Assembly (NCBI RefSeq): GCF_030013205.1
Contig: NZ_CP122649.1
From: Escherichia coli
GTDB taxonomy: Bacteria; Pseudomonadota; Gammaproteobacteria; Enterobacterales; Enterobacteriaceae
Reading direction: 5' to 3' (one strand)
Length of the DNA stretch: 64,000 nt
A model generated the notes under the pieces. That model saw nothing but the letters and a program-made list of their open reading frames with translations, had not been told where the DNA came from and searched no databases. Both the position numbers and the translations under genes were made by a program. Each line of letters begins with the position of its first letter. Position 1 is the first letter of the stretch. Positions 12,088 to 40,112 of this stretch are shown piece after piece.

Positions 12088-12175
12088 AAGTACAACTACC
12101 GGCTGCATATCGACTCTTCAGAAGTCGTTGAAGACGTAACGGTGTTGCGCTGCTTTATTGAAACCGGAGTGATGA

Positions 12176-21931: not shown

Positions 21932-22289
21932 ATCGTGATAAAAATTAGATTACCAGAACGTCAGAAGCAAAAAAAAAGCATTAAGCAGAAATGTATGGTA
22001 TCCATCCTTCCTCCAGCTACCCTTGCGCCCTGATAATTTTATCCTGGGGGAGGGGGCATTGATCATTACATACCCGATCAGAAAAGCCGGGAACCAGAAT
22101 GTCACCCGGATATCGAAGATGCAACGATTCAATATTAGTGTATTTAGCGTCTCCTGGCAGCAAAGTCGGTCGGCCGGAACTGGTAAACTGTATTCCACCT
22201 CGCCCGGGCTGGCAGGCGACTGACGTCTTGTCGGTTCATAGCCGGTGGTCGCGTCTGACAAAACAGGCCCCTACAGTGTAAGGATTGTG

Positions 22290-22682
22290 ATGGACGATAA
22301 AGAGCAGTTTACGAGTCTCGTGGCAAAGCATGCCTCCAGATTCACCGAAGAGCAGCTGGCCGGGTATGATGCCTGTTCCCAGTATGGAGAATGCGTCTCG
22401 CCTTCATACGAAGTATTCCGGGGGTATCGTACCCGCCACACCCTGGATGAATTTCTGGAGCTGGCCATATCGCTGAATGCCATCCACCCGGATGAATATT
22501 TAACGGATATGCTGCTGAAGCCTCATGAGGTGATCGGTGCTCTGGCCGATGAAGGCGACCAGTTGAACAACGCCACCCCGGTTTATTTCTTCCCGGATAC
22601 CGGCGTCTATGCAGCGGCCGTCAGTGAAACCCGTGTGCTCGATGCCTGGCTTTGTTGGCCATGCTACCCGGCGAACTGGTAA
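22290..22682 (+). CDS. hypothetical protein (130 aa)
   Basis: Internal ATG of tracked ORF 22245..22682 with SD aagga. Confidence 0.5.
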   Translation: MDDKEQFTSLVAKHASRFTEEQLAGYDACSQYGECVSPSYEVFRGYRTRHTLDEFLELAISLNAIHPDEYLTDMLLKPHEVIGALADEGDQLNNATPVYFFPDTGVYAAAVSETRVLDAWLCWPCYPANW

Positions 22683-22750
22683 TGCGTCCGTTGGAATTGC
22701 ACCGGCAGGATACGAATTTAACCGACCCCGTGGCGGGAGGGTTATCACAA

Positions 22751-23002
22751 TTGCATGTCCTCATCCCTAAAGTCCCCTGCCAGACCCATACGTGCTGTCA
22801 GGCTTCGCCTGATTTGAGATCAGTGCAAATACTTCAGCCGATAACTTTTTGTTTTCTTTTTATTTTCTCCCTGTTTCCTCAAAATTCGCGTGGGGCCTGG
22901 TCAGGGCACGATTGTCACATAGGGTGTATTGAAGCGGGCTGGATGGTCGGGTGGGCACGACCTGGGTTTGAGTCGGACACTATGTGGGATGAGGACATGC
23001 AA
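22751..23002. repeat. 17-bp perfect inverted repeats bracketing a 218-bp segment
   Basis: ttgcatgtcctcatccc (22751-22767) is the exact reverse complement of gggatgaggacatgcaa (22986-23002). The pair lies in a ~770-bp stretch without a convincing gene. Confidence 0.8.
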
Positions 23003-23452
23003 AATATTCGCTTTATCTGTGAAAACTGTTGTCTCCGGGCAGTCACCAGTTCAAGTTACACCATCCACGTTAGCTTTTAATAAGAGTGGTTACGATGTTC
23101 AGTACTGAGAAAAAATCAGAGCATTTAGGTCAGATCATAGTGATTGATCCGGCGCTTCTTGGGCAGGGTATAGAGGTTGGCCCGGTCGTAGTGTTTGATT
23201 TGGGGCACGCCAGCAAAGGGGTTGCGGACTTGATGCGCGATGCTGAAAAGCTTGATGGTTTATCCCCAACGACAATAGCAAACAGACTTTCACGATGACC
23301 GAACAAGGTCGATTCGGGCAAGGCGGCGGAGGGGCACATCTCCCAATGATAATGAGGTTATGCAACCTGTTAGTCACCGGCTTGCCTGATGCTATGATTG
23401 ACATCTCTTTTGACCGGTCTGTATTTGAGCATTAATTCGTGAGGAATACGGT

Positions 23453-24658
23453 ATGCGCAGTGAAATACCTTCTGGTAGATTTTTTTGTTTGGATGAGTTT
23501 CACAATTTCCATATGAGCGATGATGTCCTTCGTGAAAGACTCCGTTCAATAGACGGCATCCCCGCTGTGAGCTATCAGGTAAATGGCGAAAATGTTTTTG
23601 TGTTCGAGAAACTTGTCCAGCTGGTAAAACAGAATGGCCACAACCTGGAATCAGCCTTAGCTCTCGTTCCGAAGGCAACAATGACCGCCGCAGAGGCTAT
23701 TGAAGCGTGGTCGGTATTCCCCGAGCCGTATTCTCGTGAGACCAATACAATCGACCATAGTCAGGCGATCTATCACCCCTATTTAAATGCGTATCTGCCC
23801 CGGAAATATCCCGACCGTGAATCCTGTAATGCGGATGCGGCCAGATTACTTCTCGGCAATCCTGTCGAGGGTGAGGGGGATTTTGTCTACAGGGGGCAGT
23901 CCATGGTCCTTCGCCAGCCCTTTACCCTGGACCGTCTTCCCCCACGACCTGAATGGGATGTGCCGGTGTCTGAAGATGCCAGTGCCTACACACATCTCTG
24001 GAACACGGATTTTGTCAGTGGCTTCGCACCGGTTACCGAATCACTGTTCAACGGGATAAAATCGGCGGAGTGGGAATGGAACCACGCTATCGCTGCGACA
24101 TACGCATACATGGGAAATCCGGAGTGTATCTCTTCGTTGTGGTCACGGGCGGGTGAGTTCGGACTGGAGCAGCTGGAGCTCAAATCCTGGGACGTTGACG
24201 AGCAAGATCCGGAACACTACCAGCAATTCCAGGCTCTTTACCCGGAGCTGTCCATGTTGTCCCCGGCAATTATCCAGAAAGCCTATGACGAGTATTGTGA
24301 ATCGATGTGGGAAAACCCTGAAAGGTGCGACGGGTTTCTGTATCACCTTATTGGCAGTACCGTCAGTTCGGATATCTCCCGCGACAACCCAGAAAAAACC
24401 GGCAGACTCATCGCTCACGCGTTACTGACGGGGGCCTCGATTGAGGATGCCTGTCGCTTTGCCTCAGAGGCTCAGCAGTTCGATACCGCTCTATCGGGAC
24501 TGGCTTACCAGGTAGCCGTGGCCATGAAATTTGTTGCCGGTGATTCTGCGGCCGTAAGGAATGAAGGCCATCCGGTCATTACACTTTCCGACTCCTTCCG
24601 TCTTATGAGAAAAGCAAATATTAACACCCTGACGGCCACACAGAACAACCGGAAATGA
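23453..24658 (+). CDS. hypothetical protein (401 aa)
   Basis: ORF track; SD gagga 8 nt upstream; no motif recognised. Confidence 0.65.
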   Translation: MRSEIPSGRFFCLDEFHNFHMSDDVLRERLRSIDGIPAVSYQVNGENVFVFEKLVQLVKQNGHNLESALALVPKATMTAAEAIEAWSVFPEPYSRETNTIDHSQAIYHPYLNAYLPRKYPDRESCNADAARLLLGNPVEGEGDFVYRGQSMVLRQPFTLDRLPPRPEWDVPVSEDASAYTHLWNTDFVSGFAPVTESLFNGIKSAEWEWNHAIAATYAYMGNPECISSLWSRAGEFGLEQLELKSWDVDEQDPEHYQQFQALYPELSMLSPAIIQKAYDEYCESMWENPERCDGFLYHLIGSTVSSDISRDNPEKTGRLIAHALLTGASIEDACRFASEAQQFDTALSGLAYQVAVAMKFVAGDSAAVRNEGHPVITLSDSFRLMRKANINTLTATQNNRK

Positions 24659-24827
24659 TGAGCACAAATCGATATGGATGCCGATATTAAGAACGATGAT
24701 TATGTTGACTGTCTCATTGAGCAGGTAACCGTATAGCGGACTGGAACACGAATGCTGATGCTCTACACCAGGCCTGCGGCGCCTTCGTAGATGCACCGCA
24801 TTCAAAACAAACGACAGGTGATAATTT

Positions 24828-25319
24828 ATGAAGTTGACAAAAATGATGGCGACCTTGTTCCTGCTTATTCCCTTGACATCTTTTTCGCAGGAATTGGGCC
24901 AGCGAATATCACAGGATGACAGTGCAGAACTGGCGAATAAGGCAGGTACAGCTTTGACAGAGATGCTTTTGCTAAAAGTTCAGCAATTGCCACAGGTGAA
25001 AAAGAACAGTGGAATGGACCTTGCGGCTGCAAATGACGCTGTTGCTTCCTTACTCAGCAAAGAGTTTTTCATTTTTAAACCAGTTGATGAAATCAGCATA
25101 AAAACCTCTGCTCAAAAATTAAAAGAGCTGAATGATGATGCCGACGCACTTGCTAAGGGGTACACCATCATTCAACCAGATGATGTCGGAAGCTCCTACA
25201 TTTCGTATAAGGTGACGTCCAGCTCTCGAACCTGCTTCATTCGCCTTTCAAAGGATCTGTCATCGTCATTAAATACCAGAATTGTAACTGTGAATAGCAT
25301 GGAGTGTTCGAACCCATAA
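24828..25319 (+). CDS. secreted hypothetical protein (163 aa, signal peptide)
   Basis: N-terminus MKLTKMMATLFLLIPLTSFSQE is typical of a Sec signal peptide. Confidence 0.6.
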   Translation: MKLTKMMATLFLLIPLTSFSQELGQRISQDDSAELANKAGTALTEMLLLKVQQLPQVKKNSGMDLAAANDAVASLLSKEFFIFKPVDEISIKTSAQKLKELNDDADALAKGYTIIQPDDVGSSYISYKVTSSSRTCFIRLSKDLSSSLNTRIVTVNSMECSNP

Positions 25320-25420
25320 ACCACGTTGACCGGCTAATTCACTTTACGGGGTAAATGAGTTGTGAAACCCATTTTATTTTCACCCTCAATTACAGAAATT
25401 CAAGCCGAATAGAGACTGTA

Positions 25421-25648
25421 ATGATTATTATCCTTGGTGTTCTGCTTTTATTGTCTCTTTTCTTCAATATCTGGTTTTGGGATCACTATATGCGTGTCAT
25501 TCCGTTATCAGCGGATAAAAGTAGCATGTTTGCTATCGCCTCCAGCTGTGAAAACCCTCGGTGGGTGCAAGAAGTTGAGAGCCGTGGGGGGATGACCCGT
25601 AAGGAATGGGCTGACTTTGTGGATCGAAATTTTAACCCTCCTAAATAG
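25421..25648 (+). CDS. small membrane protein (75 aa)
   Basis: Internal ATG of tracked ORF 25355..25648; N-terminal TM MIIILGVLLLLSLFFNIWFW. Confidence 0.45.
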   Translation: MIIILGVLLLLSLFFNIWFWDHYMRVIPLSADKSSMFAIASSCENPRWVQEVESRGGMTRKEWADFVDRNFNPPK

Positions 25649-25757
25649 AGTAAATTCCGATTGGCATTGTTGCAGGAATTATGGTGCCGCAGCTTATTGG
25701 GTGTTTGTCAATTGCCGGGAAGTATTCGCTGGCATATCACTTAAACGGGAGTAGTAA

Positions 25758-26564
25758 GTGAGAGAACCTCGTCCACGCCATACATTACAGGTAGTCTGTG
25801 TCCCGTCTCTGAATATACAGGATCTGGGGCTAACCAGTTTTCATAGCTGGCTCTTATCAAAAGGCTATGACACGACCAATGCCAGGAACAACCGTACTTG
25901 CTGGGCAAGGGAAGGTGGCTGGCACCTGAAGCGATGCAGACATCTGGCAACGGGCGAAGATCATTTCTGGTTTATCGCATTCAACGGTACCGGCGGCGAC
26001 ATTTTTCCTGTGAAAACCCAGCAGGACTACCGTGCTGCCTACCGCAAGCTTGAAGCGTATGGATATGCACCGGCCGTTATTGAACAATTGAACACAGGCG
26101 TTGCCTATAATCTTGCTTATTCACGGACACCGTTAAAACGCCCTGAGAGCGCCACCAGCGAACTGAAGCGAAAACCTGACGTGAATATTCAGGGTGAGCC
26201 TTGCGAACGCTTTGTGACCGAACGGAGCAGCGCAGCGCAGAATAAATTCAAAACCCTGCTCATTGAGAACTTCGCCGGTCGGTGTGCAGTCACTGGATGG
26301 GTTAATGGTGGTGTGCTGGTGGCGGCTCATATCGAGCATGGGACGCGCTACAACCCTTCGAACGGCATCCTGTTGACGCCGACAATGCACGCATTGTTTG
26401 ACGCGGATCTGATGGGTATAGACCCTTCAACACTCACCGTTCATTTTAAACCGGGCATCGAGGCGGGAGAGCTGTTTGAAGGAAAAACGCTCAATCCGTT
26501 GGTGTATGATCTGGATACCGACCGGCTGGCTGCTCGCTGGGCTGACTTTATAGGTGCCGAGTGA
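25758..26564 (+). CDS. HNH-domain endonuclease (C-terminal HNH_2-type domain)
   Basis: GTG start with SD gggag. C-terminal CAVTGWVNGGVLVAAHIEHG...NGILLTPTMHALFDADLMGID matches the C-x-x-TG...AAHI...NG-L-L...H-x-LFD pattern of HNH_2-type nucleases. The ~170-aa N-terminal domain is of unknown function. Confidence 0.75.
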   Translation: MREPRPRHTLQVVCVPSLNIQDLGLTSFHSWLLSKGYDTTNARNNRTCWAREGGWHLKRCRHLATGEDHFWFIAFNGTGGDIFPVKTQQDYRAAYRKLEAYGYAPAVIEQLNTGVAYNLAYSRTPLKRPESATSELKRKPDVNIQGEPCERFVTERSSAAQNKFKTLLIENFAGRCAVTGWVNGGVLVAAHIEHGTRYNPSNGILLTPTMHALFDADLMGIDPSTLTVHFKPGIEAGELFEGKTLNPLVYDLDTDRLAARWADFIGAE

Positions 26565-26681
26565 TTGATGGGAAATTCAGCCTATAACCGATGGCAGTGT
26601 TTTCGGGATGGACACCACTTACTGATGGGGGCTGGCTGCACGCCACCTTTATATTGAAATCCAACAGAGTTGATACAACAA

Positions 26682-27089
26682 ATGCAAAATTGCCTTTCGG
26701 GATATTTAAAAGCGACCATTGTTATTTTATCTGCGGGCCTGACAGGTTGCGACCTGGCAAATGGGACTGCGGAAAGTGGTGTGTATCAGAAATACACGAA
26801 TGGACCTTTCAAGGAACCGACTATCGTGATGAGTCCGGGCTGGCGGATGGATGACCACGGCAGGGAAGCACTAATATTCGGGAGCAGCCACTGCCCGGAT
26901 GTAAACGGCAATAATACGTCTGAGGGCGGCTGCGTCCTCATTGAGGAGCACTCTGCGACTGTCGCGGTCACTGTTGTTGATGCGACAAATCAGTCCCGTC
27001 GCCATGAAACCTGGACGATTGAACGTAAAAAGGATCGAGTTATAGTGAAGCGCCCGGATAACAGTTTTGTGATGCCCTGGGGAAAATAG
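26682..27089 (+). CDS. lipoprotein (135 aa)
   Basis: ATG inside tracked ORF 26670..27089; lipobox LSAGLTGC after a hydrophobic signal sequence. Confidence 0.6.
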   Translation: MQNCLSGYLKATIVILSAGLTGCDLANGTAESGVYQKYTNGPFKEPTIVMSPGWRMDDHGREALIFGSSHCPDVNGNNTSEGGCVLIEEHSATVAVTVVDATNQSRRHETWTIERKKDRVIVKRPDNSFVMPWGK

Positions 27090-27396
27090 CCAAGATACAA
27101 GATGACCACAAAAATGAATAAGCCGCAATGTTGTTTTGTGTGTTGAACGTCCTGATGGAGCCTTTGACATTTACACTGGCCGTTTTATACAGTTCCACCA
27201 AATTGACAACAGTAGAAGAAAAATTGTTGAAATAAGTGATCCTGACCTGGTGGGGATGACTTATTCAATCCCGATGGTTTTTAACGGAGGGAAGTTCAGT
27301 GGTCAAGGGGTTACCTGTCTCTCGCTCCCCGCAGTAACATTAATAAAAGTAACTTTTCCTTCCCGAACTTATCAGGAGGGGCAGGAACAAATCACA

Positions 27397-27726
27397 ATGT
27401 CGAGCCCGGACCAGGCACTATTTTCTGAAGATGTCCGGAAAAACTGCGCCGGTACGTGTGTTCTTACCGGCGTTCTAGGCAGACAAAGAACTGAGGCTGC
27501 GCACATAAAACCCCGTCATGCTGGTGGTGAGCCGGATGTGACAAACGGGATTCTACTGCGAAGTGACATCCATATTGGAATTTACTGCTTGGCAGGCATA
27601 ATAAGAGGCAATAGAGTAAAAATCCCGAAAGAACAAGATATGCCATGTACGCTTCAATTAACGATGATATATGTCGGCATCACCTTTTTCCTAATTGTCG
27701 GTTATATCTGCCATCAAATAACTTAG
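27397..27726 (+). pseudogene. second HNH_2-type domain ORF, apparently degenerate at the C-terminus
   Basis: CVLTGVLGRQRTEAAHIKPRHAGGEPDVTNGILLRSDIH matches the HNH_2 core, but the expected LFD segment is replaced by an unrelated hydrophobic tail. The start is uncertain: the frame is open back to TTG 27136. Confidence 0.4.
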
Positions 27727-27814
27727 AACTGATTTAGAATTGAATTTGATAAAGCTTACTACAAAGTAGTTTTGTCAATGTTCAACCTGTTTATCAAACC
27801 TACGGTGAATTTTT

Positions 27815-28037
27815 ATGACTGGGAATGGTATCAATACTGTACGCATAAACAACGAAGTGAAACACATCTCAGAGTTAGATCCGGAGATCTCTTTTTCTTG
27901 AATGGAATAAACTGAAAAGTGAAAATAACGAACTGTATCGCTGCATAAAGGAAGCAAATTCTGGTTGGCGTGGTTTTGTCCTTCGTTTAATAGGGGTTTA
28001 TCTACCTGATGGCAAAACAATTGTCATTAAACCCTAG
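27815..28037 (+). pseudogene. small gene split by a frameshift at a T5 run
   Basis: ATG 27815 ORF (28 codons) stops at 27899-27901. The +1 frame continues from the ttttt run (27892-27896) to TAG 28035-28037, encoding ..EWNKLKSENNELYRCIKEANSGWRGFVLRLIGVYLPDGKTIVIKP. Confidence 0.3.
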
Positions 28038-28072
28038 ATTATTTGAATATTCCTAAACATAGGCTTAATAAG

Positions 28073-28096
28073 AAAAGCCACTGAAAAGTGGCTTTT
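28073..28096. terminator. Hairpin terminator, probably the original hns terminator
   Basis: aaaagccac tgaaa gtggctttt. On the minus strand it would lie ~45 nt downstream of the hns stop once the transposon at 28130-45816 is removed. Confidence 0.6.
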
Positions 28097-28129
28097 GAAC
28101 TGAGCTGTTCGCGATTTTAATTTCAACTT

Positions 28130-28167
28130 GGGGTTCTAAGCCGGAACCGCCGAAAATTCCGTCAGCC
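28130..28167 (+). repeat. Left terminal inverted repeat of the Tn3-family transposon
   Basis: ggggttctaagccggaaccgccgaaaattccgtcagcc. Confidence 0.85.
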
Positions 28168-28566
28168 GATCAACGTGGCTTGTCCCGCGCCCGGTCGATG
28201 GGGTAGACCCAACAGTCGTGTCACTAGCCGCCATTTCGATCACGGCAATGCCAGCCGGACGTCACGTCCAGATTGTTCCGGTCTGGATGAGGCCGACTGA
28301 CGTCTCGGATGACGGGTGGCATACAACTGCTGTGAGTCCTGCAGGGGGGCAGCTGCCTGACCGGACGGCGAGCATCAGCCCATCTCATGTATTAGTCATG
28401 TCAGCTTTGACACTGCGCACGCGACGGCACCCGACCCGTTGCAGACCCCCAGACATATGGAAAGCTGACGCTCAACGTGGAGTTAGCCGGCGCGGCGCGG
28501 CTTCATCGCGCAGCGTCCGTGTTGATGGATGGGTTAGAACTCTCTGGGGCACACATTTGAGAAAGA

Positions 28567-28923
28567 CTATTTTTCAGCCAACGCAAAACCCGCGTTGCCA
28601 GATGCAACCACTGAGACAAATACAAACGGCACTGGACTAGTATTTAGAGCGCCATGCACTTGGCCAGGTTTTGCTATGGCAATATCTCCAGCCTTTAGAT
28701 GAGCGACTTTGCCGCCTCCTTGGTAATACTCAGCCTCTCCAGAGATAACCGTCCAAGTATCTTGGCCGTCCGGGTGAACATGAGCGGTTATTTCTTGCCC
28801 AGGATGGGCATGCCAAACAACAACTGCTGAGTCCTTGGTTTCCAGAACCACTGAACGAATTGGTTCGCCGTCAGACGGACTAATATATTCTGTTACCGAA
28901 AATATTCTTGATTCCATTTCCAT
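28567..28923 (-). CDS. cupin-domain protein (118 aa)
   Basis: Internal ATG of tracked ORF 28567..29160. The cupin-like pattern is HAHPGQEITAHVHPDG...GEAEYY..G...LKAGD.AIAKPGQVHG. Confidence 0.65.
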   Translation of the reverse strand: MEMESRIFSVTEYISPSDGEPIRSVVLETKDSAVVVWHAHPGQEITAHVHPDGQDTWTVISGEAEYYQGGGKVAHLKAGDIAIAKPGQVHGALNTSPVPFVFVSVVASGNAGFALAEK

Positions 28924-29056
28924 ATCCACTCCAAAAATCAATTTGGCTTGAGAAGTTATTACAGAACAACTGTATCCGAGAGTTCTACGTTGCCGATAAC
29001 CGGCCCGAAACGGCGGCGCAACGCGCCGCTGTTGGGGGTCCGTGTTCATCGGCGGG

Positions 29057-29617
29057 TTAGACCTGTGCTTGCGTAAGACGAATATCGACTTCTCGGTCGA
29101 CGTATTTCCATTCCTCTGACGCACGCAGTTCGGAAAGCAGCCTGTTGAACTCAACCTCATGAATTGGCGCGTATTCGAACCAATTCAGAAAATCGAACGG
29201 TTCATTCTCTGAGAGGTCGCGGCAGTGGTGGAGCTTGCGCGCTACTGCAGGCAAATACTGAAGCCCGATTTGGACGTGCTTCGACTGTTCGAAAACGCTC
29301 CGGCGTTCGTCTTGCGTGAGCTCCCACCAAGCTGCGTTCTTCCGGATCGGTATTAGCGCACCGCACGTTGCTTCTGGGCGCGCCAGACCTTGCTGCTTCG
29401 CTACAATTTCATTCTTCTCTGCGCGCATGACATATCGTTCATTGCTGGTTATTCCACGAAGTATCCAGGGTGCATTGGTTTCAGACTGCAACTCTGAAGC
29501 GGATACGACGTTGAGCCTTTTGGCTTCAGGCAGGGGCTCGCCAACTCTCGTTTCGGCCCTGACAATCCGCCAAGGGCCAATGTCTGCGCCGACGAAAGCA
29601 AATAATCGTGTATCCAT
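29057..29617 (-). CDS. chlorite dismutase-family protein (186 aa)
   Basis: ORF track. The sequence class is recalled from annotations of Tn3-family passenger genes (recall only). Confidence 0.55.
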   Translation of the reverse strand: MDTRLFAFVGADIGPWRIVRAETRVGEPLPEAKRLNVVSASELQSETNAPWILRGITSNERYVMRAEKNEIVAKQQGLARPEATCGALIPIRKNAAWWELTQDERRSVFEQSKHVQIGLQYLPAVARKLHHCRDLSENEPFDFLNWFEYAPIHEVEFNRLLSELRASEEWKYVDREVDIRLTQAQV

Positions 29618-30023
29618 TTCAATCTTTCATGTGTGAATGTTTTAACTCTTGCAGCTTCGAAGAACCTATCTGCCGATCCCGTGATTGTGCATCATCGCCT
29701 CCGCGCAACTGCGACGACCGCCCGCAGCAATCACATTGAACTTTCGAATCGAAACTGCTGAAGCGAACCTACGCGGACGTACGGCCGCAGTCTGTGCGCT
29801 GCCGGACGGAGCGCTGCCAATTTGCGCCTACTGGCAGGCTGTGAGTGCGCGGATGGGCCAGCGACCTCCCTTCATAGAGGGAGCGAAGCAGGTCAGAGAC
29901 ACTATTGAACGTCCGCTACCGGGAAGATGCTTGACCGTCCGCAACTGGCCGCCTGCCGCCGACCGCGGTCTGGCTCGAAAGCAGTCTGTCAACGCGCCGT
30001 TTCATTGTTGCCATGATCATCTC

Positions 30024-30155
30024 TTAATCGCGCACAGGCGGCCACAGGCGGGCAGTATGAACCAGCGTCAGTATCCACACCGTTTCGCCGTCGATCTGAT
30101 ACACCAGGCGATAGCTTTCGTGCGGGATCAACTCGCGGGTCCCGGGAATCTTTCC
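30024..30155 (-). pseudogene. RelE/ParE-family toxin, 3' fragment truncated by IS26
   Basis: The last 43 codons, GKIPGTRELIPHESYRLVYQIDGETVWILTLVHTARLWPPVRD, abut the IS26 end at 30156. The rest of tracked ORF 30024..30746 is antisense to IS26. Confidence 0.7.
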
Positions 30156-30975
30156 GGCACTGTTGCAAATAGTCGGTGGTGATAAACTTATCATCCCCTT
30201 TTGCTGATGGAGCTGCACATGAACCCATTCAAAGGCCGGCATTTTCAGCGTGACATCATTCTGTGGGCCGTACGCTGGTACTGCAAATACGGCATCAGTT
30301 ACCGTGAGCTGCAGGAGATGCTGGCTGAACGCGGAGTGAATGTCGATCACTCCACGATTTACCGCTGGGTTCAGCGTTATGCGCCTGAAATGGAAAAACG
30401 GCTGCGCTGGTACTGGCGTAACCCTTCCGATCTTTGCCCGTGGCACATGGATGAAACCTACGTGAAGGTCAATGGCCGCTGGGCGTATCTGTACCGGGCC
30501 GTCGACAGCCGGGGCCGCACTGTCGATTTTTATCTCTCCTACCGTCGTAACAGCAAAGCTGCATACCGGTTTCTGGGTAAAATCCTCAACAACGTGAAGA
30601 AGTGGCAGATCCCGCGATTCATCAACACGGATAAAGCGCCCGCCTATGGTCGCGCGCTTGCTCTGCTCAAACGCGAAGGCCGGTGCCCGTCTGACGTTGA
30701 ACACCGACAGATTAAGTACCGGAACAACGTGATTGAATGCGATCATGGCAAACTGAAACGGATAATCGGCGCCACGCTGGGATTTAAATCCATGAAGACG
30801 GCTTACGCCACCATCAAAGGTATTGAGGTGATGCGTGCACTACGCAAAGGCCAGGCCTCAGCATTTTATTATGGTGATCCCCTGGGCGAAATGCGCCTGG
30901 TAAGCAGAGTTTTTGAAATGTAAGGCCTTTGAATAAGACAAAAGGCTGCCTCATCGCTAACTTTGCAACAGTGCC
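30156..30975 (+). mobile_element. IS26, copy 1 (820 bp)
   Basis: 14-bp IRs ggcactgttgcaaa / tttgcaacagtgcc; exact 820-bp length. Confidence 0.97.
30219..30923 (+). CDS. tnpA: IS26 transposase Tnp26
   Basis: 234 aa from MNPFKGRHFQRDIILWAVRWY.... This copy reads ..LSYRRN.. and ends ..VFEM. Confidence 0.95.
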   Translation: MNPFKGRHFQRDIILWAVRWYCKYGISYRELQEMLAERGVNVDHSTIYRWVQRYAPEMEKRLRWYWRNPSDLCPWHMDETYVKVNGRWAYLYRAVDSRGRTVDFYLSYRRNSKAAYRFLGKILNNVKKWQIPRFINTDKAPAYGRALALLKREGRCPSDVEHRQIKYRNNVIECDHGKLKRIIGATLGFKSMKTAYATIKGIEVMRALRKGQASAFYYGDPLGEMRLVSRVFEM

Positions 30976-31473
30976 TCCGAGAAGCGGCTGTCGTTAACAC
31001 GAGGCGGCAACGTGCGCTACCAGCTCAAGACGCCGTACCGGGACGGCACCACGCACGTCATTTTCGAACCATTGGATTTCATTGCAAGGCTGGCCGCCCT
31101 GGTACCGAAGCCCAGAGTCAACCTAACCCGCTTCCACGGGGTGTTCGCACCCAACAGTCGGCACCGGGCGTTGGTCACGCCGGCAAAACGGGGCAGGGGC
31201 AACAAGGTCAGGGTGGCTGATGAACCGGCAACACCAGCACAACGGCGAGCGTCGATGACATGGGCGCAACGGCTCAAGCGTGTTTTCAATATCGACATCG
31301 AGACCTGCAGCGGCTGCGGCGGCGCCATGAAAGTCATCGCCTGCATTGAAGACCCTATAGTGATCAAGCAGATCCTTGATCACCTGAAGCACAAAGCCGA
31401 AACCAGCGGGACCAGGGCGTTACCCGAAAGCCGGGCGCCACCGGCTGAGCTGCTCCTGGGTCTGTTTGACTGA
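30976..31473 (+). pseudogene. ISCR2 transposase, 3' fragment (5' end removed by IS26)
   Basis: The sequence from 30976 equals 35260 onward of the second ISCR2 copy. It retains the natural C-terminus ..RVFNIDIETCSGCGGAMKVIACIEDPIVIKQILDHL... Confidence 0.9.
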
Positions 31474-31503
31474 CGAGCCTGAAGGCCAACGATACCAATC
31501 AAA

Positions 31504-32388
31504 ATGCTGCGTTCACAGCGCCGCGGCAGGGATCCGCCGTGCTGGTTGTCGGAAAAGGAGCCGCTAGTGGGAAAGAGGAGGGTAAATTTTCAGCGTTGCT
31601 GGCTCCCCGTCAGCCGGATTGGGTTGCATCGCAGGGGTGTCGAAAGAGTCAACTGCGGTCCAAAGCTGTTGGACTTGGGTGAAAAGGGCGTTTATTCTTC
31701 CTATACGTGCCGCGTTCCAGGCGGCGACTATGAGGGCTATGTCGATGCCCATGTGCGCCGGCTGGAGGCGCTACGCCGGGCCGGTATCGTCGAGCGGATC
31801 GACGCCGACCAATGGCGCATCCCCGATGATCTGGTCAGCCGTGCCGCCGCCCATGACGCCGGCCGAGACAGTCAGGCCAGCGTTCGCGTCCTTTCCCCGG
31901 TCGATCTGAACAAACAGATCGGATCGGACGGCGCGACCTGGCTGGACCGGCGGCTGATCCACGGCGAGACGGCCGACCTTGCGCCAACCGGCTTCGGGCA
32001 ACAAGTCCGCGAAGCCATGGACCAGCGCCGCGAGCACCATATCGAACAGGGCGACGCCACCCGCAGCCGGGACAGCCGCGTCTTCTACCGGCGCAACCTT
32101 CTCGCCATCCTGCGGGAGCGCGAGGTAGCCGGCGTCGGATCGGATATGGCTTTGAGTAAGGGCCTGCCGTTCCGCGCCGCCACGGACGGCGAGAGCGTCA
32201 GCGGCAAGTTTACCGGAACCGTGCATCTATCGAGCGGCAAGTTCGCCGTGGTCGAGAAATCCCATGAGTTCACCCTTGTCCCGTGGCGGCCGATCATCGA
32301 CCGCCAACTCGGCCGCGAGGTTATGGGCATCGTGCAGGGCGGGTCGGTGTCGTGGCAGTTAGGGCGGCAGAGGGGGCTGGAACGCTGA
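31504..32388 (+). pseudogene. relaxase-like (virD2-type / DUF3363-like) gene remnant usually found next to floR
   Basis: 294-aa ORF in a GC-rich segment between ISCR2 and floR. It is recalled as the truncated virD2-like ORF of ISCR2-floR modules. The start is probably not native. Confidence 0.5.
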
Positions 32389-32604
32389 GTGCGCCCATGC
32401 CGCATTGCGAAGCAAAAGATAATCGGATAAAATGTAGCAATTCATATTCGTAAGCGTGGAGTAATCAGATGGGAAATTCCAAGTCAGCAGACAAGTAAGC
32501 CGCAACAACCAGTATTGTTGTTGCGGCGCTCTGTAAGGCTAGTCTCATCTGATTGCTGACGAGCAGACGTCGCCCGGTATTCCTTAATCGAGGGTTGATT
32601 CGTC

Positions 32605-33819
32605 ATGACCACCACACGCCCCGCGTGGGCCTATACGCTGCCGGCAGCACTGCTGCTGATGGCTCCTTTCGACATCCTCGCTTCACTGGCGATGGATATT
32701 TATCTCCCTGTCGTTCCAGCGATGCCCGGCATCCTGAACACGACGCCCGCTATGATCCAACTCACGTTGAGCCTCTATATGGTGATGCTCGGCGTGGGCC
32801 AGGTGATTTTTGGTCCGCTCTCAGACAGAATCGGGCGACGGCCAATTCTACTTGCGGGCGCAACGGCTTTCGTCATTGCGTCTCTGGGAGCAGCTTGGTC
32901 TTCAACTGCACCGGCCTTTGTCGCTTTCCGTCTACTTCAAGCAGTGGGCGCGTCGGCCATGCTGGTGGCGACGTTCGCGACGGTTCGCGACGTTTATGCC
33001 AACCGTCCTGAGGGTGTCGTCATCTACGGCCTTTTCAGTTCGATACTGGCGTTCGTGCCTGCGCTCGGCCCTATCGCCGGAGCATTGATCGGCGAGTTCT
33101 TGGGATGGCAGGCGATATTCATTACTTTGGCTATACTGGCGATGCTCGCACTCCTAAATGCGGGTTTCAGGTGGCACGAAACCCGCCCTCTGGATCAAGT
33201 CAAGACGCGCCGATCTGTCTTGCCGATCTTCGCGAGTCCGGCTTTTTGGGTTTACACTGTCGGCTTTAGCGCCGGTATGGGCACCTACTTCGTCTTCTTC
33301 TCGACGGCTCCCCGTGTGCTCATAGGCCAAGCGGAATATTCCGAGATCGGATTCAGCTTTGCCTTCGCCACTGTCGCGCTTGTAATGATCGTGACAACCC
33401 GTTTCGCGAAGTCCTTTGTCGCCAGATGGGGCATCGCAGGATGCGTGGCGCGTGGGATGGCGTTGCTTGTTTGCGGAGCGGTCCTGTTGGGGATCGGCGA
33501 ACTTTACGGCTCGCCGTCATTCCTCACCTTCATCCTACCGATGTGGGTTGTCGCGGTCGGTATTGTCTTCACGGTGTCCGTTACCGCGAACGGCGCTTTG
33601 GCAGAGTTCGACGACATCGCGGGATCAGCGGTCGCGTTCTACTTCTGCGTTCAAAGCCTGATAGTCAGCATTGTCGGGACATTGGCGGTGGCACTTTTAA
33701 ACAGTGACACAGCGTGGCCCGTGATCTGTTACGCCACGGCGATGGCGGTACTGGTTTCGTTGGGGCTGGTGCTCCTTCGGCTCCGTGGGGCTGCCACCGA
33801 GAAGTCGCCAGTCGTCTAA
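32605..33819 (+). CDS. floR: florfenicol/chloramphenicol MFS efflux protein FloR
   Basis: The 404-aa product MTTTRPAWAYTLPAALLLMAPFDILASLAMDIYLPVVPAM... matches the recalled FloR. Confidence 0.95.
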   Translation: MTTTRPAWAYTLPAALLLMAPFDILASLAMDIYLPVVPAMPGILNTTPAMIQLTLSLYMVMLGVGQVIFGPLSDRIGRRPILLAGATAFVIASLGAAWSSTAPAFVAFRLLQAVGASAMLVATFATVRDVYANRPEGVVIYGLFSSILAFVPALGPIAGALIGEFLGWQAIFITLAILAMLALLNAGFRWHETRPLDQVKTRRSVLPIFASPAFWVYTVGFSAGMGTYFVFFSTAPRVLIGQAEYSEIGFSFAFATVALVMIVTTRFAKSFVARWGIAGCVARGMALLVCGAVLLGIGELYGSPSFLTFILPMWVVAVGIVFTVSVTANGALAEFDDIAGSAVAFYFCVQSLIVSIVGTLAVALLNSDTAWPVICYATAMAVLVSLGLVLLRLRGAATEKSPVV

Positions 33820-33846
33820 CCGACGACTGGTAGCAGGCCCGCTCCG

Positions 33847-34152
33847 ATGCGGCGCACTAACCATCGAAACCTCGTGAATGTCGGTATCCTGTCTGGCAGG
33901 ATACCGCTCATTTCCCTTGTTCAGTTCATCGCCGTCGCCGAGCATCTGAATTTTCGGCATGCGGCCAAGGCACTTGGTATCAGCCAGTCGAGCGTCAGCG
34001 CGCGTGTGAAAGCGCTGGAGGATAACCTTGGTGTCCTGCTATTTGAGCGCCATGCGCGGGGCGTTCGGCTAACAGACGCAGGCAGGCACTTCATGGAGCG
34101 TGTCACGGCGGGTGTCGATCAACTCGATCACGCAGTGAAGACCGCGGAGTGA
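33847..34152 (+). pseudogene. LysR-family regulator, N-terminal HTH fragment
   Basis: 101 aa with the LysR HTH LVQFIAVAEHLNFRHAAKALGISQSSVSARVKALE. The effector-binding domain is missing. Confidence 0.75.
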
Positions 34153-34263
34153 CGGGCACTGGCTGGCAATGTCTAGCAACGGCAGGCATTTCGGCTGAGG
34201 GTAAAAGAACTTTCCGCTAAGCGATAGACTGTATGTAAACACAGTATTGCAAGGACGCGGAAC

Positions 34264-35576
34264 ATGCCTCATGTGGCGGCCAGGACGGCCAGCCGGGATC
34301 GGGATACTGGTCGTTACCAGAGCCACCGACCCGAGCAAACCCTTCTCTATCAGATCGTTGACGAGTATTACCCGGCATTCGCTGCGCTTATGGCAGAGCA
34401 GGGAAAGGAATTGCCGGGCTATGTGCAACGGGAATTTGAAGAATTTCTCCAATGCGGGCGGCTGGAGCATGGCTTTCTACGGGTTCGCTGCGAGTCTTGC
34501 CACGCCGAGCACCTGGTCGCTTTCAGCTGTAAGCGTCGCGGTTTCTGCCCGAGCTGTGGGGCGCGGCGGATGGCCGAAAGTGCCGCCTTGCTGGTTGATG
34601 AAGTACTGCCTGAACAACCCATGCGTCAGTGGGTGTTGAGCTTCCCGTTTCAGCTGCGTTTCCTGTTTGCCAGCCGGCCCGAGATCATGGGGTGGGTGCT
34701 GGGCATCGTTTACCGCGTCATTGCCACGCACCTGGTCAAGAAAGCGGGCCATACCCACCAAGTGGCCAAGACGGGCGCGGTCACCCTGATCCAGCGTTTT
34801 GGATCGGCGCTCAATCTGAATGTTCACTTCCACATGCTGTTTCTCGACGGTGTGTATGTCGAGCAATCCCACGGCTCAGCGCGTTTCCGCTGGGTCAAGG
34901 CGCCGACCAGCCCAGAGCTCACCCAGCTGACGCACACCATCGCCCACCGGGTGGGTCGCTATCTGGAACGGCAAGGCCTGCTGGAACGGGATGTCGAAAA
35001 CAGCTATCTGGCCTCGGATGCGGTGGATGACGACCCGATGACACCCCTGCTGGGGCACTCGATCACTTACCGTATCGCTGTCGGTTCACAGGCGGGGCGA
35101 AAGGTGTTCACTTTGCAAACTCTGCCGACCAGTGGTGATCCGTTCGGTGACGGGATTGGCAAGGTAGCCGGGTCCAGCCTGCACGCCGGCGTGGCGGCCA
35201 GGGCCGATGAACGCAAGAAGCTCGAACGGCTGTGCCGGTACATCAGCCGCCCGGCGGTATCCGAGAAGCGGCTGTCGTTAACACGAGGCGGCAACGTGCG
35301 CTACCAGCTCAAGACGCCGTACCGGGACGGCACCACGCACGTCATTTTCGAACCATTGGATTTCATTGCAAGGCTGGCCGCCCTGGTACCGAAGCCCAGA
35401 GTCAACCTAACCCGCTTCCACGGGGTGTTCGCACCCAACAGTCGGCACCGGGCGTTGGTCACGCCGGCAAAACGGGGCAGGGGCAACAAGGTCAGGGTGG
35501 CTGATGAACCGGCAACACCAGCACAACGGCGAGCGTCGATGACATGGGCGCAACGGCTCAAGCGTGTTTTCAATAT
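34264..35576 (+). pseudogene. ISCR2 rolling-circle transposase, 3'-truncated by a Tn5393 end
   Basis: MPHVAARTASRDRDTGRYQSHRPEQTLLYQIVDEYYP.... Homology to the other ISCR2 fragment stops at 35576/35577, where the Tn5393 IR begins. Confidence 0.9.
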
Positions 35577-35615
35577 GGGGTCGTTTGCGGGAGAGGGCGA
35601 AATCCTACGCTAAGG
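35577..35615 (+). repeat. Tn5393 terminal inverted repeat (core)
   Basis: ggggtcgtttgcgggagagggcgaaatcctacgctaagg. Confidence 0.85.
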
Positions 35616-35682
35616 CTTTGGCCAACGATATTCTCCGGTAAGATTGATGTGTTCCCAGGGGATAGGAGAAGTCGCTTGATAT

Positions 35683-36519
35683 CTAGTATGACGTCTGTCG
35701 CACCTGCTTGATCGCGGCCGCGATAGCTAGATCGCGTTGCTCCTCTTCTCCATCCGCGTTCCAAGCTGCGGAAAGGCACCCATAAGCGTACGCCTGGTCG
35801 AGCAGGCGACGCGGATCGACGTCCAGCGCACGAGAGAATGCGTCCGCCATCTGTGCAATGCGTCTAGGATCGAGACAAAGGTCGTCTCTGTCAGCCGGAT
35901 CGTAGAACATATTGGCGGCGCCAAAGCCCACTTCACCGACCAGACCGACGGGATCTATCACCAGCCAGCCGCGACTGGAGAACATGATGTTTTCATGATG
36001 CAGATCGCCATGTAGCCCACGCAGTTCCGAGGCATTGCTCATCATTTGATCGGCTATAATCGCCGCGTGGACGTAGTCAGTTTGACAACCTGCGTTTTGA
36101 TCATCGCGCGCCCGCTGAAACAAAGCTGCAAAGCGATCCCGGATCGGGAGAAGGGCAGAAGGCAGGGGTTCCTCAGATGCGGCATACAGCTTCGCCATTA
36201 GTTCCGCTGCAATTTCGGTCGCCTGGTAGTCGCCGTGCTCGGCAACGATGTGAGAGAGCATTCGCTCCCCGGCATATTCGAGCAACATCAGATTGTTCTC
36301 ACGACCGAGCAACCGGACTGCTCCCCTCCCATTGCGCCATACCAGATAGTCGGCCCCGCGCAGTTCATCAGCAATGTCTTCTATAGGTTTCAATCCCTTG
36401 ACGATTGCAGGAGTCCCGTCTGGCAATGAAACTTTCCAAACGAGGCTGGAAAAGGTGTCCGCAATGAGAACAGGTTGCGAAACGTGCCAATGAGCAGGAA
36501 AAACAGGCGGCATGAACAT
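35683..36519 (-). CDS. strB: aminoglycoside 6-phosphotransferase APH(6)-Id
   Basis: 278 aa from MFMPPVFPAHWHVSQPVLIADTFSSLVWKV...; the start overlaps the strA stop. Confidence 0.95.
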   Translation of the reverse strand: MFMPPVFPAHWHVSQPVLIADTFSSLVWKVSLPDGTPAIVKGLKPIEDIADELRGADYLVWRNGRGAVRLLGRENNLMLLEYAGERMLSHIVAEHGDYQATEIAAELMAKLYAASEEPLPSALLPIRDRFAALFQRARDDQNAGCQTDYVHAAIIADQMMSNASELRGLHGDLHHENIMFSSRGWLVIDPVGLVGEVGFGAANMFYDPADRDDLCLDPRRIAQMADAFSRALDVDPRRLLDQAYAYGCLSAAWNADGEEEQRDLAIAAAIKQVRQTSY

Positions 36520-37322
36520 CAACCCCAAGTCAGAGGGTCCAATCGCAGATAGAAGGCAAGGCGTTCGCGGTCGGGGGCTTCGATCCCCAATACATTGAAT
36601 AGGACAGCGAAGGCGCGCTCTGCTTCATCTGGCGCTGCCCAGTTCTCTTCGGCGTTAGCAATCATGAGTGCCAAATCGGCATAGCGATCTGCTGTTCCGA
36701 GCCGCCCAAGGTCGATCAGACCCGTGCATTGAAGAGTTTTAGGGTCCACCATGAAGTTCGGCATGCAGGGATCACCATGGCAAACAACCATATCGGTGCG
36801 CTCTTGGTCGAGCCGCACCGGTAGCTCTCGTTCGACACGAGCCAAAAGATCGAGCTGCGGCGTACTCTTGTCCTCGTCCGGTAAGAAGTCGGGATTGACG
36901 GCATTGCGGGACACCACATCAACGGCGCGTCCGAACATTCGCGACAGCCTGCGCTCAAACGGACATTGATCAACCGATAGGCTGTGAACAGCGCCAAGTT
37001 GCTGCCCCATTGACGGCCACGCTTTGAGCAAATCCGCTCCAGACAGATCAGCCGCCGGTACTCCCGGAATTGCCGTTATCACCAAGCATGCACCCTCCTG
37101 TTCCTCCTGCCAGTTGATCACCTCGGGGCAAGCCACACCTCGACCTTTGAGCCAAATGAGGCGGTCACGCTCTCCAGCGAGCTCACCGCGGCGGGAAGCA
37201 GGTGCGATTTTCGCGAAGGCATGCCCGTCACCACGTCGAAAAACAAAATCACCAGATTCTCCGCCTCTGACAGGCAACCAGTCAGAATGCGATTCACCAA
37301 AAAAAATATTAGTTCGATTCAA
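36519..37322 (-). CDS. strA: aminoglycoside 3''-phosphotransferase APH(3'')-Ib
   Basis: 267 aa from the TTG start (L/M)NRTNIFFGESHSDWLPVRGGESGDFVFRR.... The tracked 329-aa ORF is a 5' over-extension. Confidence 0.95.
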   Translation of the reverse strand: MNRTNIFFGESHSDWLPVRGGESGDFVFRRGDGHAFAKIAPASRRGELAGERDRLIWLKGRGVACPEVINWQEEQEGACLVITAIPGVPAADLSGADLLKAWPSMGQQLGAVHSLSVDQCPFERRLSRMFGRAVDVVSRNAVNPDFLPDEDKSTPQLDLLARVERELPVRLDQERTDMVVCHGDPCMPNFMVDPKTLQCTGLIDLGRLGTADRYADLALMIANAEENWAAPDEAERAFAVLFNVLGIEAPDRERLAFYLRLDPLTWG

Positions 37323-37428
37323 TGGAGGTTCCTTCAGTTTTCTGATGAAGCGCGGAGGTGGCTCAACCTGCGAAAAGAAACGAGTTGCTATGGACTTGCA
37401 CCGGTTGTGTTCCGGTCTATCTCTCATT

Positions 37429-38286: not shown

Positions 38287-38558
38287 AGCTTTTGTACTGC
38301 GAAAAATATTGCTGCCTTTTTTAATATCTCCCTCTCCTCCCGAAGGATACGGTTCTCTTTGCGTAAACGTTCATTCTCACGCAGAAGATCAGTGTCTTGG
38401 GTAGGAATTTTAGTTTCATCGGAAATTGATGCGATCCATTTCCCAAGCGTGGAAAGCCCAATACTTAAATCTGACGCAACTTGACGGCGTGTTAAGCCAC
38501 TAGTGAGTGCTATGCGAACTGCATCACGCTTAAATTCATCACTATGCTTTAATGACAT
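38283..38558 (-). CDS. IS1133 OrfA (HTH)
   Basis: MSLKHSDEFKRDAVRIALTSGLTRRQVASDLSIGLSTLGKW... Confidence 0.85.
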   Translation of the reverse strand: MSLKHSDEFKRDAVRIALTSGLTRRQVASDLSIGLSTLGKWIASISDETKIPTQDTDLLRENERLRKENRILREEREILKKAAIFFAVQKL

Positions 38559-38622
38559 ATATGGTCTCCTTGATAACAAATAATGCTCTCAAAAAGACCG
38601 GAACGAAACCGAGGCAAGTCCA

Positions 38623-39788: not shown

Positions 39789-39822
39789 CTTTGTTAGTAT
39801 CAAGTGGCAGGAGGCCCCGATC

Positions 39823-40110: not shown

Positions 40111-40112
40111 AA

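What the first reader, a model, noticed from the sequence alone, without database searches (positions are those of the whole stretch)
24828..27726. Two HNH_2-type nuclease genes interleaved with secreted, membrane and lipoprotein genes
The 268-aa protein (25758) carries a C-terminal HNH_2-type domain (CAVTG..AAHI..NGILL..HALFD) behind an unassigned ~170-aa N-terminal domain. This layout is typical of modification-dependent (type IV-like) or stand-alone defence nucleases. A second ORF (27397-27726, possibly from 27136) repeats the HNH_2 core but loses the LFD segment and ends in a hydrophobic tail. Each is preceded by exported proteins: a signal-peptide 163-aa protein plus a 75-aa TM protein, and a 135-aa lipoprotein. 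Pairing cytoplasmic nuclease domains with envelope proteins is unusual. It may indicate a two-module duplication of an uncharacterised system.
Basis: partly seen in the sequence, partly recalled or inferred. Interest (0 to 1): 0.5.

Follow-up and report, generated by a model that had tools for sequence, protein, structure and literature searches.

The report
Plasmid HNH nuclease with unknown sensor domain
A large IncHI1 resistance plasmid carries one intact, strongly conserved nuclease built like a restriction enzyme that senses modified DNA but with an unrecognised front domain, whereas the "second copy" is a twice-deleted dead gene and the neighbouring membrane-protein genes are bystanders.

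Summary
The window is IncHI1 plasmid backbone.

HNH2 is a pseudogene. A 200-bp deletion just after its start codon shifts the frame; R27 and pO111_1 share it. A 482-bp deletion, present in about 10% of carriers, removes half the HNH motif. It fuses the ORF in frame to the 3′ half of a downstream membrane-protein gene, which explains the "hydrophobic tail".

The exported neighbours are absent from IncHI2, chromosomal islands and a P4-like element, and are partly deleted in R27. The two N-terminal regions are unrelated, so there is no duplicated two-gene module.

Best reading: a stand-alone sensor-plus-HNH defence nuclease with a new sensor domain. Its trigger is unknown.

The parts
25758..26564 (+). 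HNH1: intact 268-aa two-domain nuclease gene (GTG start; identical to WP_001209044.1 as annotated in pO111_1 and R27)
   Evidence: ORF; annotation; Pfam HNH_2 at 29.7 bits; dN/dS 0.07 against IncHI2 and 0.14 against the S. diarizonae lineage; 961 plasmid records with >=80% coverage
25770..26129 (+). HNH1 N-terminal domain (residues ~5-124): unrecognised fold of two strands, two helices, two strands and three helices; basic (pI 9.3), 17% aromatic/His; putative target sensor
26130..26270 (+). HNH1 linker (residues 125-155, low confidence, most variable part) plus the helix (158-171) that precedes the HNH core
   Evidence: pLDDT below 50 for residues 106-154 in the full-length model and helix H158-171; dN/dS 0.21 for residues 126-155. 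Comparable to the 148-178 helical linker of VcaM4I (PMC7897488).
26271..26564 (+). HNH1 C-terminal HNH_2 nuclease domain; invariant residues C176, H191, N202, G203, H211, D215
27114..27146 (+). Relic start of HNH2 (MNKPQ...): the frame is broken by a 200-bp deletion at about 27129 and a stop follows after 10 codons
   Evidence: Comparison with the full-length gene in L012, and translation MNKPQCCFVC*. The same sequence is present in pO111_1 and R27 (contiguous alignment).
27136..27573 (+). HNH2 remnant ORF: internal part of a 282-303-aa protein. It lacks the conserved first ~80 residues and stops within the HNH motif after NGILLRSDI
   Evidence: Alignment A3; tblastn coverage of residues 70-218 only; Pfam HNH_2 match covering profile positions 1-55 of 66
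27571..27575 (.). Junction of the 482-bp deletion relative to pO111_1, R27 and pHCM1
   Evidence: blastn break at window 27574/27575, corresponding to L002 11575/12058. The 482-bp segment is present in 153 of about 170 carrier plasmids.
27574..27726 (+). The 'hydrophobic tail': the 3' half of a ~98-aa membrane-protein gene, fused in frame to the HNH2 remnant
   Evidence: Matches the C-terminal 50 residues of L015 9638-9934 (…AIGINCIAGIIKGRTIKVPTEQDLP…GYICHRFI)
24828..25319 (+). 163-aa signal-peptide protein: bystander backbone gene, not part of the nuclease function
   Evidence: Present in L014-L016 at 75% identity. Absent from IncHI2. Deleted in R27. dN/dS 0.40.
25421..25648 (+). 75-aa N-terminally anchored membrane protein: bystander
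   Evidence: 85% identity in L015; its 5' part is deleted in R27; absent from IncHI2
26682..27089 (+). 135-aa lipoprotein (lipobox LTGC, Asp at +2): bystander
   Evidence: Lipobox; 78% identity in L015; truncated by Tn3 in L012 while the adjacent HNH2 is full length; no counterpart in IncHI2; dN/dS 0.40

Best explanation
Shown: the region is ordinary IncHI1 backbone holding one live nuclease gene and one dead one. HNH1 (268 aa) is a stand-alone protein with two parts. A basic N-terminal domain of about 120 aa, with an unrecognised fold, is joined by a variable linker and a helix to an HNH_2 nuclease domain with an intact active site (H191, N202, H211). Inferred: it works like the single-chain modification-dependent (type IV) restriction enzymes TagI and VcaM4I. 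In that model the N-domain recognises a feature of incoming DNA, most likely a base modification that the Dam+ Dcm+ enterobacterial host and the plasmid's own C5 methyltransferase do not make, or alternatively a short sequence or structure. Binding would then release or position the HNH domains, probably as a dimer, to cut nearby. This would protect the plasmid-bearing cell against phages or rival mobile elements. Shown: HNH2 was once a second enzyme of the same kind with a different, unrelated N-terminal region. In IncHI1 it has been inactivated by a 200-bp frameshifting deletion, and in this plasmid lineage a 482-bp deletion also fuses it to the tail of a membrane-protein gene. The exported, membrane and lipoprotein genes are unrelated backbone cargo.
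Confidence: 0.5

Rival explanations
1. HNH1 is a nuclease that does not depend on DNA modification. Its N-domain reads a DNA sequence or structure, and the enzyme nicks or cuts for plasmid competition, recombination or another plasmid housekeeping task.
For: The N-domain is not a known modification reader. Some HNH fusion enzymes combine sequence recognition with cleavage (PMC7461809). The gene is a conserved backbone gene of two plasmid groups and lies next to replication and nucleoid-protein genes.
Against: No cognate methyltransferase or immunity gene is adjacent to protect self DNA from a sequence-specific cutter. It also occurs in chromosomal islands and a P4-like element that have no IncHI functions. 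It is often truncated without loss of the plasmid, so it is not an essential plasmid function.
Confidence: 0.22
2. HNH1 is an abortive-infection or toxin-like effector. The N-domain senses a phage protein or small molecule rather than DNA, and releases a non-specific HNH nuclease that kills the cell.
For: The N-domain fold is unassigned. The isolated HNH domain of VcaM4I is a toxic non-specific nuclease held in check by its linker (PMC7897488), so release by a trigger is plausible. The gene sits in mobile-element cargo contexts.
Against: The N-domain is basic (pI 9.3), as expected for nucleic-acid binding. No antitoxin-like partner is conserved. All close structural relatives of the nuclease domain are direct DNA-modification sensors.
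Confidence: 0.13
3. Both HNH genes are decaying selfish or accessory relics with no current function.
For: HNH2 is demonstrably a pseudogene. Many HNH1 copies in IncHI2-type plasmids are truncated. No promoter or terminator signal exceeds the shuffled expectation.
Against: HNH1 has dN/dS 0.07 between IncHI1 and IncHI2, with dS about 2, in both domains. That is tighter than for its neighbours. Catalytic residues are invariant. There are 961 near-full-length copies.
Confidence: 0.07
4. One reading: two duplicated modules, each pairing envelope proteins with a cytoplasmic HNH nuclease, form one uncharacterised system.
For: The segment is locally rich in exported or membrane ORFs: 3 of 3 neighbours here, against about 14% of other backbone ORFs by a crude hydropathy screen. 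IncHI2 also has non-homologous TM and signal-peptide ORFs next to HNH1.
Against: The exported proteins are unrelated to each other, and the nuclease N-terminal regions are unrelated. No homologous neighbours exist in IncHI2, in islands or in the P4-like element. R27 lacks the 163-aa gene and the 5' part of the 75-aa gene. L012 has the lipoprotein gene cut by Tn3 beside a full-length HNH2. The second 'module' is a pseudogene.
Confidence: 0.03

Closest known systems
VcaM4I (EVE-HNH modification-dependent restriction endonuclease; PDB 6yex; PMC7897488)
   Different: The VcaM4I sensor is an EVE (PUA superfamily) domain that flips 5mC or 5hmC into a pocket. The HNH1 N-domain shows no PUA-like match and no sequence relation. 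Whole-protein sequence similarity is marginal (E=0.12). The substrate of HNH1 is unknown.
TagI (SRA-HNH modification-dependent restriction endonuclease; PDB 6ghs; PMC6212794)
   Different: The TagI sensor is an SRA domain. The HNH1 N-domain is not SRA-like.
EcoKMcrA (NEco-HNH) and ScoMcrA/SprMcrA/EcoWI (SBD and/or SRA plus HNH)
   Same: The same principle: a lineage-specific sensor domain fused to an HNH nuclease, acting as a stand-alone type IV enzyme (PMC7461809).
Database annotation 'HNH endonuclease signature motif containing protein' (WP_001209044.1) of R27, pHCM1 and pO111_1
   Same: It is this very gene, already present and named as an HNH protein in hundreds of plasmid records.
   Different: The annotation says nothing about the N-terminal domain, the likely mode of action or the pseudogene status of the second copy. 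NCBI annotates the latter as a normal CDS.

Membership tests
Pfam HNH_2 (PF13391) nuclease family | Score above the curated gathering threshold (21 bits) | tested here: met
   HNH1 29.7 bits; window HNH2 remnant 30.0 bits; intact pO111_1 HNH2 42.1 bits; IncHI2 HNH2 47.3 bits
Pfam HNH_2 (PF13391) nuclease family | [quoted passage not shown] | tested here: met
   For HNH1, H191, N202 and H211 (plus C176, G203, D215) are invariant in 17 homologues, and H191 aligns with VcaM4I H224. For the window's HNH2, the distal part of the motif (TLFD onwards) is deleted, so this feature is not met for that copy.
Modification-dependent (type IV) sensor-HNH restriction endonucleases (TagI, VcaM4I, ScoA3IV type) | C-terminal HNH nuclease domain of the TagI/VcaM4I structural type | tested here: met
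Modification-dependent (type IV) sensor-HNH restriction endonucleases (TagI, VcaM4I, ScoA3IV type) | N-terminal modification-sensing domain of a known reader class (PUA superfamily: SRA, EVE, YTH, ASCH; or winged helix, NEco, SBD) | tested here: not met
Modification-dependent (type IV) sensor-HNH restriction endonucleases (TagI, VcaM4I, ScoA3IV type) | Cleavage requires a modified base in the substrate | not testable with these tools
   Needs biochemistry or phage and plasmid restriction assays
Modification-dependent (type IV) sensor-HNH restriction endonucleases (TagI, VcaM4I, ScoA3IV type) | Stand-alone gene with no adjacent cognate methyltransferase | tested here: met
   No methyltransferase is adjacent in IncHI1, IncHI2, the islands or the P4-like element. 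The plasmid's C5 methyltransferase lies on the far side of hns, about 6 kb beyond it in R27 and at 51880-53307 in the window.
Phosphorothioate-dependent SBD-HNH restriction endonucleases (NCBIfam NF045808) | Score above the curated cut-off (180 bits), which requires the SBD domain | tested here: not met
   16.9 bits (HNH1) and 23 bits (HNH2), covering only the HNH part of the profile
Known defence-system proteins in PADLOC-DB v2 | Full-length match to a system component model | tested here: inconclusive
   Only partial matches to two 'HNH' models (PDLC04132 E=3.7e-9, profile positions 133-222 of 286; PDLC03546), covering the nuclease part
   hhalign probability 0.4% between the N-terminal regions. 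BLASTP aligns only the C-terminal HNH part. No similarity among the 163-, 75- and 135-aa proteins.
   Linked only within the IncHI1-like clade. Absent in IncHI2, islands and the P4-like element. Partly deleted in R27.

The most novel reading that the evidence does not exclude
The ~120-aa N-terminal domain of HNH1 is a new class of DNA-modification or invader-DNA sensor. That would make HNH1 the founder of an undescribed family of type IV restriction enzymes, carried as a conserved backbone gene by about a thousand IncHI1 and IncHI2 multidrug-resistance plasmids. It could then influence which phages and rival plasmids can enter clinical Enterobacterales, and might provide a new modified-base-specific reagent.
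Probability: 0.3. Interest if true: 0.6.

Novelty: new variant of a known kind. Interest (0 to 1): 0.38.

Why it matters
IncHI1 and IncHI2 plasmids are major carriers of multidrug resistance in Salmonella, E. coli and Enterobacter. Nearly all of their backbone "hypothetical" genes are unstudied. HNH1 is a strongly conserved backbone gene with the build of a modification-sensing restriction enzyme but a sensor domain that matches nothing known. If it restricts phages or incoming plasmids, it would be a plasmid-borne defence that affects phage therapy and plasmid competition. It would also add a new reader fold to the tools for detecting modified bases. The negative results matter as well. The second "HNH endonuclease" annotated in hundreds of records is a pseudogene. 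The apparent pairing with envelope proteins comes from gene order within one plasmid clade, not from a functional system.

Tried and rejected
- **Conserved small partner upstream of the HNH genes.** Candidates were the 86-aa ORFs in L012 and L017, the 102-aa ORF in IncHI2 and the 67-aa ORF in L015. All-against-all BLASTP found no relation among them. The L012 ORF is just the 3′ part of the lipoprotein gene cut by Tn3.
- **Frameshift in the second copy.** The cause is deletions of 200 bp and 482 bp, not a point frameshift.
- **Repeats in 20-29 kb.** Only one weak inverted repeat, of no relevance.
- **Promoter and terminator scan.** Counts did not exceed the shuffled expectation.
- **Conserved element near 22.65 kb.** It resembles the odd N-terminus of P0051. 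It proved to be part of a widely shared module, the 130-aa gene plus downstream sequence. There is no Rfam hit and no fold signal (z −0.2 and −1.3).
- **afdb50 fold search.** The library was unavailable.
- **Literature.** I found no functional study of these genes. An IncHI1 proteomics paper does not mention them in its main text, and I did not read its supplementary tables.
- **N-terminal region of HNH2.** No Pfam or PDB sequence match.
Full report
**Identity of the window.** The region 22000-28200 is 100% identical to large (~200 kb) conjugative MOBH/MPF_F plasmids of E. coli and Salmonella. It is 99.9% identical to pO111_1, which is typed IncHI1B. HNH1 is 99.6% identical at the protein level in the IncHI1 prototype R27. 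The finding therefore lies in IncHI1 backbone, between the RepFIA-like repE/IS1 region and hns. In this plasmid a 17.7-kb resistance region (28130-45815; IS26, floR and others) is inserted between the HNH2 side and hns. After it the backbone resumes.

**Check of the observation.** All five ORFs exist at the given coordinates. Both nuclease ORFs exceed the Pfam HNH_2 gathering score (29.7 and 30.0 bits against 21), so these are real domain matches. The quoted motifs correspond to C176AVTG, A188AHI, N202GILL and H211ALFD. The 163-aa protein has a Sec-type signal peptide pattern. The 75-aa protein has an N-terminal TM helix. The 135-aa protein has a lipobox (LTGC, residues 20-23) with Asp at +2. 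These features rest on sequence patterns only, because no dedicated predictor was available.

**The second copy is a pseudogene.**
- *3′ deletion.* Alignment with pO111_1 shows that the window lacks 482 bp, with the junction at about 27574. In pO111_1 the ORF continues as "...NGILLRSDINTLFDNWHFSIDP...", which is a complete HNH_2 motif in an annotated 236-aa protein.
- *Origin of the tail.* In the window the deletion joins codon ~146 in frame to downstream sequence. That sequence is the C-terminal 50 codons of a ~98-aa membrane-protein gene, which is intact in a Salmonella diarizonae relative (L015 9638-9934). This explains both the loss of the LFD segment and the hydrophobic tail.
- *Frequency.* About 170 plasmid records carry the 5′ part of this gene and 153 carry the 482-bp segment. 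The deletion therefore marks a minority lineage of about 10%.
- *5′ deletion.* The 236-aa "intact" IncHI1 form is itself damaged. All full-length relatives are 282-303 aa and share a conserved first ~80 residues (ELGLTGEILSIRT...FDHVVLCVER) that the IncHI1 form lacks. Comparison with L012, which has a 296-aa version, shows that the original start (ATG AAT AAG CCG CAA, window 27114) is still present. A 200-bp deletion follows it directly and shifts the frame, giving MNKPQCCFVC*. pO111_1 has the identical sequence, and R27 aligns contiguously through this point.
- *Conclusion.* HNH2 is a pseudogene remnant in classical IncHI1 and is doubly truncated in this window.

**HNH1 is intact and under selection.** tblastn finds it in 1637 plasmid records, 961 of them with ≥80% coverage. 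These fall into a ≥99% group (IncHI1) and a large ~80% group (IncHI2 type). Between IncHI1 and IncHI2, synonymous sites are saturated (dS about 2) but dN/dS is 0.07. By region it is 0.072 for the N-domain, 0.035 for the HNH domain and 0.21 for the linker. The exported neighbours evolve faster (0.20-0.40 against L015). Many IncHI2-type plasmids in Enterobacter and Klebsiella nevertheless carry truncated copies. The gene is therefore useful but dispensable, which is typical of accessory defence genes.

**The nuclease domain.**
- *Conservation.* In 17 homologues down to 23% identity, the residues C176, H191, N202, G203, H211 and D215 are invariant.
- *Link to proven enzymes.* Both top hits are biochemically proven modification-dependent restriction enzymes (PMC6212794, PMC7897488). 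A VcaM4I nuclease fragment scores 48.9 bits on Pfam HNH_2. HNH1 H191 aligns with VcaM4I H224, whose H224A variant is inactive.

**The N-terminal domain.**
- *Distribution.* An exhaustive phmmer search of 1.84 billion representatives with residues 1-150 found only 22 proteins. Every full-length one has a C-terminal HNH_2 domain. Some also have an extra 180-260-aa N-terminal extension, and one has two HNH_2 domains. Named members are from Enterobacterales: Citrobacter, Enterobacter, Klebsiella, Raoultella and E. coli.
- *Model.* The domain alone (alignment A2, 8 sequences, 43-78% identity) gives a confident model with pLDDT 84.3 and pTM 0.77. It has two strands, two helices, two strands and three helices.
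- *Properties.* The domain is basic (pI 9.3, against 5.5 for the nuclease half) and has 26 invariant positions rich in Trp, Tyr, Phe and His. This fits a nucleic-acid or base-binding role but does not prove one.
- *Module shuffling.* The HNH module of HNH1 also occurs behind unrelated N-terminal regions in P0019, P0021, P0022, P0025 and in phage families (phrog_23050, E=1.9e-35). The nuclease is therefore a shuffled effector module.

**The neighbours and the "two-module" idea.**
- Within the IncHI1-like clade, the S. diarizonae plasmid lineage keeps the 163-, 75- and 135-aa genes (75-85% identity), together with a full-length 291-aa HNH2.
- Outside that clade the link disappears. IncHI2 has HNH1 (79%) and HNH2 (54%) but no homologue of any of the three exported proteins. 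It does have non-homologous TM and signal-peptide ORFs in similar positions.
- The 41%-identical relative P0017 lies between an HTH_3 gene and an integrase.
- P0019, which shares only the C-terminal HNH half and not the N-domain, lies in a P4-like element with a primase, Phage_ASH and Exc.
- R27 lacks window 23455-25502. That removes the 401-aa gene, the whole 163-aa gene and the 5′ part of the 75-aa gene, yet R27 keeps HNH1.
- In L012 the lipoprotein gene is cut by Tn3 next to a full-length HNH2.
- The three exported proteins are unrelated to each other. The N-terminal regions of HNH1 and HNH2 are unrelated (hhalign probability 0.4%; BLASTP aligns only 104 C-terminal residues at 30% identity).
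- A crude hydropathy screen suggests that this segment is richer in exported or membrane ORFs than the rest of the backbone (about 14%). This does not track the nuclease across lineages. The duplicated-module hypothesis is not supported.

**Mechanism.**
- *Shown.* HNH1 has a two-domain architecture, an intact active site, a nuclease domain of the TagI/VcaM4I structural type, strong selection on both domains, no conserved partner gene, and mobile-element cargo contexts.
- *Inferred.* HNH1 works like a single-chain type IV enzyme. Its N-domain would recognise a feature of foreign DNA and license the HNH domains to cut. By analogy with VcaM4I these are probably dimeric, and the linker and helix (125-171) may be auto-inhibitory (PMC7897488).
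- *Constraint on the target.* The hosts are Dam+ Dcm+ (my own knowledge), and the plasmid encodes its own C5 cytosine methyltransferase (window 51880-53307, Pfam DNA_methylase E=5.7e-74). The target is therefore unlikely to be one of those marks. Phage hypermodified bases or foreign methylation patterns are more plausible.
- *Confidence.* I put about 0.5 on this reading. The rivals are a modification-independent specific nuclease (0.22), a protein- or ligand-triggered abortive effector (0.13), a functionless relic (0.07) and the envelope-linked two-module system (0.03).

**Novelty and score.**
- The gene is already in databases as "HNH endonuclease signature motif containing protein", and the sensor-plus-HNH principle is well known (PMC6765204). 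This is not a new kind of system.
- What is new is an N-terminal domain with no recognisable relative by sequence or fold, strictly coupled to HNH_2, in a conserved backbone gene of clinically important plasmids. I rate it a new variant of a known kind, with interest 0.38.
- The most striking part of the original finding, nucleases paired with envelope proteins, is explained away.

Noticed in passing
window 28130-45815: A 17.7-kb segment (cupin and chlorite-dismutase genes, IS26 copies, floR and others) is inserted into the backbone between the HNH2 side and hns. pO111_1 coordinates 12609-12614 flank it on both sides, which may be a short target duplication. The backbone resumes at 45816 with hns, DUF6884 and DUF1173 genes.
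   Followed up: partly
window 51880-53307 (-): Intact 475-aa C5 cytosine DNA methyltransferase (DNA_meth_N + DNA_methylase, E=5.7e-74) with no adjacent restriction gene. It is conserved in R27, pO111_1 and L012. It constrains what modification a plasmid-borne modification-dependent nuclease could safely target.
   Followed up: partly
window 23455-25502, compared with R27 (L019 ~3746-3751): The prototype R27 lacks 2,048 bp that are present here and in pO111_1. The missing stretch holds the 401-aa gene, the 163-aa signal-peptide gene and the 5' part of the 75-aa TM gene.
   Followed up: yes
L002 (pO111_1) ~11917-12220; window 27574-27726: The ~98-aa membrane-protein gene downstream of HNH2 is frameshifted at a run of eight G in pO111_1, relative to the intact L015 version. 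This could be a slippage-prone tract or a sequencing error.
   Followed up: no
window 22291-22915: The 130-aa hypothetical gene and about 230 bp downstream of it are conserved at 88-91% nucleotide identity in over 1,000 other plasmids, including IncHI2-type plasmids and the IncF-type pECL_A. That is far above the 75% seen for HNH1 coding DNA. The translated downstream sequence resembles the odd N-terminus of P0051, an HNH1-family protein. No Rfam hit and no fold signal.
   Followed up: partly
window ~3810-8920 (five ORFs of 306-322 aa): A tandem run of similar-sized hypothetical genes with similar N-termini (MKLATDLVNAVLIKNG, MKIIEKIINAFLISRK, MKAIYKIIEAMLVKMG...). It looks like a paralogous family expanded in tandem on the IncHI1 backbone.
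   Followed up: no
L007 3586-5209 (IncHI2 context): In IncHI2 a hipBA-type toxin-antitoxin pair (HTH_3 + HipA) lies about 800 bp upstream of HNH1. Upstream of that lie a 165-aa glycine-zipper-like membrane protein and a 462-aa protein of unknown function.
   Followed up: no
L017/L018 7001-8383 (P0019): A 460-aa relative shares only the HNH module. It sits in a P4-like element (primase with DUF927, Phage_ASH, Exc) next to a T5orf172/MUG113 protein and follows an 86-aa glycine-zipper membrane protein. The context looks like cargo of a mobile element.
   Followed up: no
IncHI2-type plasmids (P0012, P0013, P0016, P0042, P0062, P0063; H54-H59): HNH1 is often truncated or frameshifted in IncHI2-type plasmids of Enterobacter, Klebsiella and Leclercia. 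Fragments of 76-203 aa occur on contigs of up to 350 kb, some of them on more than 100 contigs.
   Followed up: partly
L015 8374-8577 and 10118-10728: The S. diarizonae IncHI1-like lineage has extra small genes that IncHI1 lacks: a 67-aa gene between the lipoprotein gene and HNH2, and 101-aa and 54-aa membrane proteins after the 98-aa gene. A Tn7 TnsA-like/sigma70_r4 523-aa gene and an IS110 element lie before hns.
   Followed up: no
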